A stretch of DNA of 64,000 nucleotides from Octopus vulgaris (taxonomy: Eukaryota): contig OX597828.1 in the NCBI GenBank assembly GCA_951406725.2, positions 8,990,001 to 9,054,000 of the forward strand. The letters are read 5' to 3'. The notes under the pieces are model-generated. The model worked only from the letters and a program-made list of their open reading frames with translations, made no database searches and was not told where the DNA came from. A program made the position numbers and the translations under genes. The stretch's first letter is position 1, and the number at the start of each line of letters is the position of its first letter. Shown piece by piece: positions 22,826 to 50,800 of this stretch.

Positions 22826-23609
22826 GAAATATTAAAATTACTAAGTCTCTCTAAAAGAGATTACGGCAGCGTTACTGGAAATTAATTGTTATCGCCATAT
22901 TAATATGGCAGTCTTATAGATATAAGACTAAAAGCTGTCGCTGATCAGCCCCATGAGGCCATCGCCTTAAGATAGCTATTTGACACACAAACTGTGTCCA
23001 TTATAACCTTCTGTAGGATTTCTTTTAAAGAAAGGTAAAAAAATAATCTTTATGGAAAGCGATCGACAGCATTCAGTGTGTGTTTAGGTGTGTCTCTGTG
23101 TTTGTGAGTATGTGTCTGAGTAGGTTATAATGGACACAGTTTGTGTGTCAAATAGCTATCTTAAGGCGATGGCCTCATGGAGCTAATCAGCGACAGCTTT
23201 TAGTCTTATATCTATAAGACTGCCATATCAATATGGCGATAACAATTAATTTCCAGTAACGCTGCCGCAATCTCTTTTAGAGAGACTTAGTAATTTTAAT
23301 ATTTCTATTATTGAAAACAAGTGTATGTATTCCACCGAAACTAGGTAAATAAAACCGTCGAACAGAGACGATCAGTGGCGAAACCTGCTGGGTCGACTAC
23401 GCTACATTGACAAAGGGCAAATACCCTGAAACGCGTCTGTAGCTGTCTGACTGGCAGTGTGAAGTGGCTGACCTCCCTTGTTCGAAGGTTATAATGGACA
23501 CAGTTTGTGTGTCAAATAGCTATCTTAAGGAGATGGCCTCATGGAGCTAATCAGCGACAGCTTTTAGTCTTATATCTATAAGATTGCCATATTAATATGG
23601 CGATAACAA

Positions 23610-40532: not shown

Positions 40533-40595
<63 letters not shown>

Positions 40596-40634
40596 ACGCA
40601 GACACACACACATACACGCACATACACTTATATA

Positions 40635-49185: not shown

Positions 49186-49236
<51 letters not shown>
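49098..49236. repeat. (TATC)n + (TA)n microsatellite
   Basis: Direct reading. Confidence 0.95.
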
Positions 49237-49239
<3 letters not shown>

Positions 49240-49411
49240 TTATGAATTATGAATTATGAATTTTCTGGTTGATTCCGTAATGGAATCGGCGGCTTATATT
49301 TATTTGCTGCCGATAAATTTGGCGCGAGTGCGATGATTTGAAAATTTTAGGTCAGATATTGCCGAGGCAGGGACAGAAATGCCTAGTGAAAATATCTGTT
49401 CCGTTCTGGCT

Positions 49412-49518
49412 ATTTTTTACTGAGGAATCTAAGGGCCTATGGAAGATTGGCTTGATTTAATTTAATCAGGTTAGTTTACCATTAAACAGTAGATGAAACG
49501 GTGCATCGTATAAGAAAT
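49412..49518 (+). ncRNA. Type I hammerhead ribozyme, unit 1
   Basis: ATTTTTTA/TAAGAAAT (one G.U); CTGAGGA 49420-49426; ATCTA..TAGAT; GAAA 49495-49498; ACGGT-GC-ATCGT; GTA| at 49510. Confidence 0.85.
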
Positions 49519-49900
49519 TACAGGGTAAATGTTTTTTTAATTTTCTCCTGGTTTACGGAATTAATGTTATTTTTGCGGTTGAAGCTTTGGCTGTTATTTC
49601 TAGTGGGTGAATGGCCTATTATGGCCGTTCCTTGATTGTGATGTTGAACTTATAAATGGTCTAAGACTATTTAATTTTTTCCCACTAGGCCGCTGGTGGC
49701 AAAAAATTCTACCAAATTTTTTTGCCACCCTATATTGATTAATTATGAATTTTCTGGTTGATTCCGTAATGGAATCGGCGGCTTATATTTATTTGCTGCC
49801 GATAAATTTGGCGCGAGTGCGATGATTTGAAAATTTTAGGTCAGATATTGCCGAGGCAGGGACAGAAATGCCTCGTGAAAATATCTGTTCCGTTCTGGCT

Positions 49901-50007
49901 ATTTCTTACTGAGGAATCTAAGGGCCTATGGAAGATTGGCTTGATTTAATTTAATCCGGTTAGTTTACCATTAAACAGTAGATGAAACGGTGCATCGTAT
50001 AAGAAAT
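49901..50007 (+). ncRNA. Type I hammerhead ribozyme, unit 2
   Basis: Perfect 8-bp stem I ATTTCTTA/TAAGAAAT; CTGAGGA 49909-49915; GAAA 49984-49987; GTA| at 49999. Confidence 0.87.
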
Positions 50008-50391
50008 TACAGGGTAAATGTTTTTTTAATTTTCTCCTGGTTTACGGAATTAATGTTATTTTTGCGGTTGAAGCTTTGGCTGTTATTTCTAGTGGGTGAA
50101 TGGCCTATTATGGCCGTTCCTTGATTGTGATGTTGAACTTATAAATGGTCTAAGACTATTTAATTTTTTCCCACTAGGCCGCTGGTGGCAAAAAAATTCT
50201 ACAAAATTTTTTTTGCCACCCTATATTGATTAATTATGAATTTTCTGGTTGATTCCGTAATGGAATCGGCGGCTTATATTTATTTGCTGCCGATAAATTT
50301 GGCGCGAGTGCGATGATTTGAAAATTTTAGGTCAGATATTGCCGAGGCAGGGACAGAAATGCCTCGTGAAAATATCTGTTCCGTTCTGGCT

Positions 50392-50498
50392 ATTTCTTAC
50401 TGAGGAATCTAAGGGCCTATGGAAGATTGGCTTGATTTAATTTAATCAGGTTAGTTTACCATTAAACAGTAGATGAAACGGTGCATCGTATAAGAAAT
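50392..50498 (+). ncRNA. Type I hammerhead ribozyme, unit 3
   Basis: As unit 2; CTGAGGA 50400-50406; GTA| at 50490. Confidence 0.87.
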
Positions 50499-50720
50499 TA
50501 CAGGGTAAATGTTTTTTTAATTTTCTCCTGGTTTACGGAATTAATGTTATTTTTGCGGTTGAAGCTTTGGCTGTTATTTCTAGTGGGTGAATGGCCTATT
50601 ATGGCCGTTCCTTGATTGTGATGTTGAACTTATAAATGGTCTAAGACTATTTAATTTTTTCCCACTAGGCCGCTGGTGGCAAAAAAATTCTACAAAATTT
50701 TTTTTGCCACCCTATATTGA

Positions 50721-50800
<80 letters not shown>

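What the first reader, a model, noticed from the sequence alone, without database searches (positions are those of the whole stretch)
49427..49510. Atypical hammerhead architecture: ~68-nt extended stem II, A-U closing pair and self-complementary stem III
Seen: stem II (ATCTA/TAGAT) starts with A-U instead of the usual G10.1-C11.1. It carries a long G.U-rich arm (ATGG-AAGATTGGCTTGATT/AATCAGGTTAGTTT-ACCAT). Stem III ACGGTGCATCGT is self-complementary with only a 2-nt loop. Known: palindromic stem III indicates dimeric hammerheads in tandem repeats and PLEs. Inference: cleavage may need two adjacent units, so only multimeric transcripts would be processed and monomer circles would stay stable. 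Standard length-limited motif searches would probably miss this variant.
Basis: partly seen in the sequence, partly recalled or inferred. Interest (0 to 1): 0.7.

Follow-up and report, generated by a model that had tools for sequence, protein, structure and literature searches.

The report
Pseudoknotted dimer hammerhead in retrozyme repeat
Each unit of a young jumping repeat with about 3,000 copies in this animal genome carries a hammerhead-type self-cutting RNA motif with an unusually long side arm; paired changes among the copies suggest that it likely cuts as a pair of units and is likely braced by a small four-base-pair knot, but cutting itself has not been tested.

Summary
The features are real. 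49420-49510 is a complete type I hammerhead core in the first of three 491-bp units set in (TA)n. It belongs to a dispersed non-LTR retrozyme family with about 3,000 stem III motifs. Dimer reading: supported. The two central stem III bases, which can pair only between units, switch together from GC to AU (1,060 of 1,103 non-G copies), and a two-unit transcript folds unconstrained into the double hammerhead. 'Obligate' is unproven. The A-U closing pair is not special: it toggles among A-U, A.C, G-C, G.U and U.U. The arm is stable, but its covariation is weak (p=0.23), and other hammerhead families here also carry loop II arms. New: a 4-bp helix between the leader 5' of stem I and the 5' side of the stem II internal loop is paired in 152 of 152 cells, with two two-sided changes. 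It is likely the pseudoknot that frees loop II to carry the arm. The Penelope-type insertion footprint (46 of 46 inverted insertions use one of each fixed end) was found before by this scan on other copies. New variant of a known kind.

The parts
49252..50728 (+). Retrozyme insertion: 3.0 head-to-tail 491-bp non-coding units, 99% identical, flanked by (TA)n; left edge preceded by four TATGAAT repeats
   Evidence: no ORF of 110 aa or more lies inside the units (the only overlapping one starts at 50669 and runs into microsatellite)
49408..49411 (+). Leader strand (GGCU) of the predicted stem I-loop II pseudoknot, unit 1 (unit 2: 49897-49900; unit 3: 50388-50391)
   Evidence: covariation
49412..49419 (+). 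Stem I 5' strand (pairs with 49511-49518; in the dimer with the next unit's 3' strand); unit 1 carries a C>T that leaves a U.G wobble
49420..49426 (+). Hammerhead core C3-A9 (unit 2: 49909-49915; unit 3: 50400-50406)
   Evidence: N7 free
49427..49431 (+). Stem II proper, 5' strand (pairs with 49490-49494); A10.1-U11.1 closing pair
   Evidence: (outer pair A-U to G-C in 7 of 30 rows)
49434..49437 (+). Loop II strand (GGCC) of the predicted pseudoknot, on the 5' side of the 7x7 internal loop
49439..49482 (+). G.U-rich arm inserted in loop II, 3' of the pseudoknot strand; unit 2 has an A>C at 49957 that breaks one pair
49495..49510 (+). G12-A15.1, 12-nt palindromic stem III (49498-49509) and H17; predicted cleavage after 49510 (unit 2 after 49999, unit 3 after 50490)
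50615..50628 (+). Short fixed 3' end of the family (unit position about 387); not used as an end in this array
50716..50728 (+). Long fixed 3' end (unit position about 490) joined to (TA)n; the 3' end of this insertion

Best explanation
Each 491-nt unit of this non-coding repeat carries a complete type I hammerhead core that likely cleaves mainly as a double hammerhead formed by two neighbouring units, and that is likely braced by a 4-bp pseudoknot between the leader 5' of stem I and the 5' side of the stem II internal loop, which would leave the rest of loop II free to carry a 44-nt arm. Shown: the core, three covarying stems, joint switching of the two central palindrome bases, the covarying leader-loop helix, about 3,000 dispersed young copies in (TA)n, and two fixed 3' ends used one at each side of inverted insertions. 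Inferred: (1) read-through transcripts of arrays fold into the double hammerhead and release unit-length RNA; (2) the released monomer is ligated into a circle in which stem III cannot form well, so it is cut slowly; (3) the pseudoknot replaces the usual non-canonical loop 1-loop 2 contact and makes the 10.1-11.1 pair dispensable; (4) a Penelope-like RT-endonuclease, probably of the Neptune type, nicks (TA)n and primes from both DNA ends at two fixed sites about 103 nt apart, running round the circle to write tandem arrays. The arm is most likely a tolerated, stably folded insertion with a structural role rather than a catalytic part.
For: Dimer: of 1,103 genome copies whose first central base is not G, 1,060 are A-U; only 3 copies have G without C, all G.U. 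A further C-G to A-U change in stem III occurs in 6 of 38 subfamily rows. Hairpin -0.2 against duplex -17.5 kcal/mol; the active single fold costs +3.5 kcal/mol in the monomer circle, P(stem III) 0.05. In units 2-3 the unconstrained MFE equals the double hammerhead (-221.9); inter-unit helix P 0.92-1.0; double +1.9 against one single +10.1 kcal/mol; units 1-2 +3.3 against +7.3. Pseudoknot: 152 of 152 cells paired over 38 rows and 7 haplotypes; G-C to A-U in one lineage, C-G to U-A via U.G in an 8-row clade; haplotype shuffle p=0.029. 221 of 231 individual copies keep 4 of 4 pairs, against 0, 9, 1 and 0 when slid by -2, -1, +1, +2. The inner pairs of the rival nested hairpin are not conserved. 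Such stem I-II pseudoknots are known and raise activity 20- to over 100-fold (PMC3088659 section 7). Mobility: 46 of 46 inverted insertions with two canonical ends have one short and one long end (p=3e-14); 119 of 122 canonical ends abut (TA)5; 0 of 112 inner 5' breakpoints lie within 5 nt of the cleavage site; within-array distance median 2 against 32 between arrays. An intact RT + GIY-YIG element (781 aa) with short and long ends in (TA)n is in the genome.
Against: No cleavage, circle or expression data. ViennaRNA ignores pseudoknots and tertiary contacts, which could rescue the monomer; coral and mussel retrozyme monomers cleave alone at about 0.8 and 0.1 per min (PMC7229834). An A.C-centred stem III (duplex only -7.1) was amplified in at least one 7-unit array, and 43 copies have a non-G, non-AU centre, so the full palindrome is not essential for copying. 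The GC/AU switch may be a single historical event. The leader and loop 4-mers were located by purine/pyrimidine patterns, which favours pairs 1-2, and only about two independent two-sided events exist. In the window's own subfamily the same helix can close an inactive nested hairpin (P 0.35). Arm: only one two-sided change; 13 of 20 alternative states keep pairing against 54% expected (p=0.23); an A.C mismatch is fixed in 11 of 38 rows. No informative sequence similarity between the unit and the GIY-YIG-bearing elements in 46 loci, mostly one family. In Xenopus only 1 of 9 retrozyme dimers cleaved in vitro (10.64898/2026.07.22.740005).
Confidence: 0.68

Rival explanations
1. The hammerhead is monomer-competent: the pseudoknot and coaxial arm stabilise the active fold enough that the 4-bp stem III with a tetraloop suffices, and the palindrome only speeds cleavage in multimers.
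For: The single active fold is only 3.0-3.5 kcal/mol above the ensemble before any pseudoknot energy is counted; invertebrate retrozyme monomers with 2-bp helix III cleave alone (PMC7229834); A.C-centred copies were amplified.
Against: Joint GC to AU switch in 1,060 of 1,103 copies with almost no single-change intermediates; monomer hairpins of 0 to -2.9 kcal/mol in all 38 rows.
Confidence: 0.2
2. The leader-loop II helix is an off-switch rather than a pseudoknot: it closes a nested hairpin that sequesters stem I and the core in monomer circles, and opens in the active dimer.
For: It appears in the MFE of the monomer circle of the window's subfamily and reaches P 0.35-0.97 in 5 of 38 rows.
Against: The enclosed pairs differ in register or are absent among subfamilies, and P is 0.1 or less in most rows, whereas stems I and II covary. 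The two roles are not exclusive.
Confidence: 0.12
3. The ribozyme is a weak or vestigial passenger: the element spreads from uncleaved multimer transcripts, and the mismatch-prone closing pair shows relaxed catalysis.
For: A.C and U.U closures were amplified (14 of 38 rows); ribozyme mutants did not affect insertion by the anole element in vitro (PMC11167929); 8 of 9 Xenopus dimers did not cleave (10.64898/2026.07.22.740005).
Against: Compensatory changes in stems I, II and III and in the leader helix across subfamilies; arrays of up to 15 near-identical units with variants shared by all units fit a circular monomer template, which needs cleavage.
Confidence: 0.12
4. The arrays are ordinary satellite DNA grown in place by unequal crossover from a Penelope terminal repeat.
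For: This route is proposed in 10.64898/2026.07.22.740005 (discussion); units within an array are more alike than between arrays.
Against: Dispersed insertions with two fixed ends, always one of each in inverted structures, scattered 5' breakpoints and (TA)n targets are insertion scars, not crossover products.
Confidence: 0.04

Closest known systems
Metazoan non-LTR retrozymes (Cervera and de la Pena 2020, PMC7229834; Li, Clavereau and Pollet 2026, 10.64898/2026.07.22.740005)
   Same: Non-coding, AT-rich tandem units, each with a type I hammerhead; weak palindromic stem III; coexists with autonomous Penelope-like elements; a weak base of helix II as in axolotl HHR_Amex2 (U.U).
   Different: Unit of 491 nt (above the 150-450 range of the 2020 paper, inside the 51-972 range of the 2026 preprint); loop II carries a 44-nt arm; the tertiary contact appears to be a Watson-Crick pseudoknot; 12-nt palindrome; no pLTR similarity found in 46 loci.
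Pseudoknotted hammerheads of types I-III (Perreault et al. 2011, PMC3088659)
   Same: A short helix ties the region flanking stem I to loop II; about 40% of their representatives are predicted to have a stem I-II pseudoknot.
   Different: Here it uses only the 5' half of an internal loop, with a long arm continuing beyond it, in a repetitive dimer-type animal ribozyme; highly repetitive type I hammerheads were excluded from their stem-length analyses (Fig. S4 legend).
Minimal hammerheads of Penelope-like elements (Cervera and de la Pena 2014, PMC4209133)
   Same: Type I, palindromic stem III, dimer model.
   Different: Those keep G10.1-C11.1, an extra base after A9, a 7-8 bp helix II and little or no helix III; this one has a labile closing pair, a 12-nt palindrome, a long arm and no ORF.
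CChMVd minus-strand hammerhead with an unusually long helix II (PMC3705267, passage seen)
   Same: A natural precedent for a long helix II.
   Different: A viroid ribozyme (type III by my recall), not shown to combine a pseudoknot with dimer-type stem III; its length was not seen in the passage.
Penelope-like element insertion with a 'tail' (Frangieh et al. 2024, PMC11167929; Craig et al., 10.1101/2021.04.23.441226)
   Same: Two internal RT start sites, both DNA strands cut and extended, AT-rich or (TA)n targets, inverted 5'-truncated partner copy, tail on one end only.
   Different: Here the passenger is non-coding, the tail is about 103 nt rather than 30-40, and the one-of-each rule is counted (46 of 46).

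Membership tests
Type I hammerhead ribozyme | Core C3 U4 G5 A6 N7 G8 A9, G12 A13 A14 A15.1, U16.1 H17 (consensus as in PMC3088659 section 13) | tested here: met
   all three units; N7 and H17 vary as expected
Type I hammerhead ribozyme | Three helices around the core, stem I open | tested here: met
   two-sided changes in stems I (4 pairs), II (2) and III (1) in 30 rows, and in stems I (4) and III (3) in 38 rows; 0 of 500 shuffles reach the paired fraction
Type I hammerhead ribozyme | Paired N10.1-N11.1 next to the core, usually G-C | tested here: inconclusive
   A-U in the window; over 38 rows A-U 17, A.C 12, G-C 6, U.U 2, G.U 1
Type I hammerhead ribozyme | [quoted passage not shown] | tested here: met
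   4-bp covarying leader-loop II helix; its form as a pseudoknot in the active fold is inferred
Type I hammerhead ribozyme | Match to an Rfam hammerhead model | tested here: not met
   no hit at gathering score or at E up to 10; four short-loop hammerheads of this genome were also missed at E up to 0.05, so the test has no power here
Type I hammerhead ribozyme | Self-cleavage after H17 | not testable with these tools
   needs in vitro transcription
Non-LTR retrozyme | Tandem units each with a type I hammerhead, no protein, low GC, no LTR | tested here: met
Non-LTR retrozyme | Many dispersed, recently mobile copies | tested here: met
   198 matches in the 40 best-scored of 1,451 candidates, the 150 listed at 95-100% identity; pattern counts
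Non-LTR retrozyme | Expressed as linear and circular monomer RNA | not testable with these tools
   only assembled contigs were available
Non-LTR retrozyme | Sequence relation to a PLE pseudo-LTR (proposed in the 2026 preprint) | tested here: inconclusive
   no informative similarity in 46 GIY-YIG loci, most of one family; 150 of 6,136 candidates were scored
Autonomous Penelope-like element | RT and GIY-YIG open reading frame | tested here: not met
   no ORF in the unit; such an ORF exists elsewhere in the genome
Minimal PLE hammerhead (min-HHR) | Extra base after A9, conserved G10.1-C11.1, minimal helix III | tested here: not met
   against PMC4209133

The most novel reading that the evidence does not exclude
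This is a switchable hammerhead architecture not found in my searches: one 4-bp leader-loop II helix serves as the activating pseudoknot in the double hammerhead and as the lock of an inactive hairpin in the monomer circle, takes over the job of the G10.1-C11.1 pair, and turns loop II into a free insertion port whose long arm is a dedicated module, for example a handle for the Penelope-like reverse transcriptase that copies the circle.
Probability: 0.22. Interest if true: 0.68.

Novelty: new variant of a known kind. Interest (0 to 1): 0.45.

Why it matters
The dimer model for animal type I hammerheads rests mostly on palindromes seen by eye and a few amphibian assays. Here more than a thousand copies give natural inter-unit covariation for it. 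The covarying pseudoknot offers a concrete, easily mutated explanation of how a natural hammerhead can tolerate both a non-canonical closing pair and a long stem II arm, and it may apply to other invertebrate retrozymes that lack the usual loop-loop nucleotides (mussel, PMC7229834). Natural subfamilies supply ready-made compensatory variants. The one-of-each end rule makes the open question of how retrozymes are reinserted testable with a purified Penelope-type enzyme. None of this is a new class of system.

Tried and rejected
Rfam: no hammerhead hit on the window nor on 10 control loci including 4 short-loop hammerheads; uninformative about arm length. Expression: no RNA holder listed on record; the contigs laid (5 of 24 listed runs, organisms A-D) show presence and variants only, and no starts, ends or circles. 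In one search organism D shows a common change at 50455 that would break an arm pair, with no partner change listed; the contigs are unphased, so this is inconclusive. Natural short-arm versions of this family: only 3 hits with a shorter stem II, all looking like decayed deletions. 'A-U is derived from an ancestral G-C': considered after L093, dropped because the pair changes repeatedly over the tree and the root is only a midpoint. RNA editing of the arm or closing pair (A-to-I) fixed by retrotransposition: no sense-strand A>G excess (shared variants A>G 13, T>C 14, p=0.56). Arm covariation as proof of selection: not significant. Pseudoknot in other long-arm families: best leader-loop complements of 3-7 bp with wobble at scattered spacings in single copies, not tested for covariation, so no claim is made. 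Autonomous partner by sequence: none in 46 loci. The first count of pseudoknot integrity returned 0 through a pattern error and was redone. R-scape is not available here.

Full report
Observation. The window is AT-rich and full of microsatellites. It lies in a 2.8-Gb genome of 227 contigs. The finding covers A10.1 to H17 of a type I hammerhead in the first of three 491-bp units (49252-50728, 99% identical). The '2-nt loop' cannot exist in a hairpin; within one unit the palindrome makes only a 3-4 bp stem of -0.2 kcal/mol.

Family. A DNA search scored 40 of 1,451 candidates and returned 198 matches on many contigs; the 150 listed are 95-100% identical. Exact patterns give 1,768 full cores with the window's stem III (control 0), 1,103 stem III motifs with a non-G first central base (the 5' core was not required), 190 cores of more diverged subfamilies and 3 others. 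The sets are disjoint by design, so there are about 3,000 in all. Contigs of four coded organisms hold the element. The unit has no ORF. This fits the non-LTR retrozymes of PMC7229834.

Stem III and the dimer. The two central bases of the palindrome can pair only between two units. They are GC in the main group and AU in 1,060 of the 1,103 non-G copies; G with a non-C partner occurs 3 times, all G.U; 43 copies have another centre (A.C in the 8 that were listed), including a 7-unit array. Other subfamilies perfect or covary the flanking pairs. The duplex is worth -13.6 to -18.8 kcal/mol in paired-centre variants and -7.1 with A.C. In a monomer circle the active fold is not the MFE (P of stem III 0.05; +3.5 kcal/mol). 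In units 2-3 the unconstrained MFE is the double hammerhead; in both unit pairs the inter-unit helix has P of 0.92-1.0. Against 'obligate': the switch may be one event; folding ignores tertiary energy; coral and mussel monomers cleave alone (PMC7229834); and two circles could pair in trans through the same palindrome (inference).

Closing pair. Among 231 copies from 76 of 80 fetched arrays (one copy belongs to another family) it is A-U 185, G.U 26, A.C 10, U.U 8, G-C 1 (the foreign copy) and A.G 1. Among 38 rows chosen to represent subfamilies it is A-U 17, A.C 12, G-C 6, U.U 2, G.U 1, scattered over the tree. The position is labile, not a fixed novelty. Natural U10.1-U11.1 hammerheads are reported in PMC3088659 and for axolotl in PMC7229834.

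Arm. It folds with P of 0.8-1.0 in the monomer circle and is present in the dimer MFEs. It is kept in all subfamilies (stem II span 64-78 nt), and short versions are three decayed copies. Covariation is modest: no two-sided change among 30 close rows, one among 38 rows with 92.6% of cells paired in the main helix, and 13 of 20 alternative states keeping the pair against 54% expected (p=0.23). A descriptor scan of the 968 kb then in hand (overlapping loci included) found 37 distinct motifs outside this family against 0 in reversed sequence; several families carry folded loop II arms with spans of 26, 30, 42, 44-46, 50, 59 and 69 nt, and some also close with A-U; another has a span of about 86 nt. 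Long loop II arms are thus a recurring trait of this genome's hammerheads. A long helix II is also known in the CChMVd minus strand (PMC3705267, passage). Paper searches found no description of such arms in animal retrozymes; 'long helix II' in PMC13725137 means 6-8 bp.

The four bases just 5' of stem I (49408-49411) are complementary to four bases on the 5' side of the stem II internal loop (49434-49437). Over 38 rows and 7 haplotypes all 152 cells pair. One multi-locus lineage changes pair 1 from G-C to A-U. An 8-row clade changes pair 3 from C-G through U.G to U-A and pair 4 from U.G to U-A. Two other lineages change U.G to C-G. Shuffling haplotypes gives p=0.029; the row-level p is inflated by kinship, and the way I located the 4-mers favours pairs 1-2. 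In individual copies 221 of 231 keep all four pairs against 0-9 for slid registers; of the 10 failures, by eye 5 are true breaks, 3 are spacing shifts, 1 is a rearranged leader and 1 is the foreign copy. With stems I and II formed this helix is a pseudoknot of the kind that activates many natural hammerheads (PMC3088659 section 7). It involves one unit only, so it is compatible with the double hammerhead. It can also close an inactive nested hairpin (P 0.35 in the window's subfamily), but the enclosed pairs are not conserved. I infer that the pseudoknot supplies the stem I-II contact, tolerates a weak closing pair, and leaves the rest of loop II free to carry the arm.

How copies are made. I fetched 80 arrays (72 from contig C1 out of the first listings, plus 8). 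Two ran off the fetched stretch, 24 had one detectable 3' end, 8 inverted ones had at least one irregular end, and 46 had two canonical ends: all 46 have one at about 387 and one at about 490 (p=3e-14). 119 of 122 canonical ends abut (TA)5. The 112 inner 5' breakpoints are spread over the unit, with none within 5 nt of the cleavage site (about 2.5 expected, so no enrichment). Units within an array differ by a median of 2 against 32 between arrays, and opposite arms are as alike as same-strand units in 9 of 10 arrays. This matches the Penelope tail and two-start-site mechanism (PMC11167929; 10.1101/2021.04.23.441226) and fits a circular template, though an uncleaved multimer is not excluded. 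[quoted passage not shown] It shares no informative sequence with the unit, so the partner is inferred. I reached this reading before consulting earlier notes; the scan had reported the same footprint on other copies in this genome. None of the notes shown reports the leader-loop II helix. That retrozymes derive from Penelope-like elements is argued in a 2026 preprint (10.64898/2026.07.22.740005), which has no text on stem II or loops.

What I read. PMC4209133 parts 1-2 of 4 and passages; PMC7229834 parts 2-3 of 6 and passages; PMC11167929 parts 1-2 of 4; 10.64898/2026.07.22.740005 parts 1-3 of 5 and a term search; PMC3088659 passages and sections 7 and 13; passages of 10.1101/2021.04.23.441226, PMC13725137 and PMC3705267. 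I saw no supplements. The search descriptors and Figs S4 and S8 of PMC3088659, the mussel and invertebrate hammerhead figures of PMC7229834 and the preprints' tables could show long loop II arms or this pseudoknot already. Most subscription papers are outside the library.

Verdict. A real, probably functional hammerhead in a known kind of element. The dimer inference is supported but textbook, the closing pair is ordinary variation, the arm is unusual against the literature but common in this genome, and the covarying pseudoknot is the new and testable part. New variant of a known kind; interest 0.45.

Noticed in passing
window, - strand position 23407 counted from the right end (about 40560-40600 on +): A short type I hammerhead-like motif with the U3-A8 core variant, 4-bp stem II and a 6-nt palindromic stem III; similar motifs in L155 and L195.
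   Followed up: no
L167:5565-5600 and relatives L144, L146, L147, L161: The terminal repeat of the young 781-aa Neptune-like element carries a minimal hammerhead-like motif with the U3-A8 core variant and a 6-nt palindrome.
   Followed up: partly
L170:768-2207 and L170:2126-4471 (also L171, L174): The intact Penelope-like element has a 479-aa upstream ORF with no convincing Pfam match that overlaps the RT-endonuclease frame by about 80 nt in another frame, suggesting a frameshift arrangement.
   Followed up: no
L064-L091: An unrelated 548-bp retrozyme-like family with canonical G-C closure and a loop II arm (span 44-46 nt), with inverted insertions ending in (TA)n.
   Followed up: partly
L083, L088, L092 at about 1501-1600: A hammerhead with a stem II span of about 86 nt in a very AT-rich element ending in (TA)n.
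   Followed up: partly
L145:455, L013:337, L243:2823, L212, L172, L202, L064: Further distinct hammerhead families with folded loop II arms (spans 26-69 nt), several closing with A-U.
   Followed up: no
80 arrays L183-L262: Variants shared by all units of an array show G>A 24 against C>T 2 on the hammerhead strand, while single-unit variants (43 against 24) follow base composition; may reflect reverse-transcription error or cDNA deamination, but events are not independent and polarity is uncertain.
   Followed up: no
L008:1097-1445: One array of the main subfamily contains a unit of a 90%-identical subfamily, suggesting template switching between different RNAs during one insertion.
   Followed up: no
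window 49234-49262: The left edge of the array is an exact whole number of units preceded by four copies of a 7-mer from the unit junction; 7 of 112 inner breakpoints elsewhere also fall at unit position 1.
   Followed up: partly
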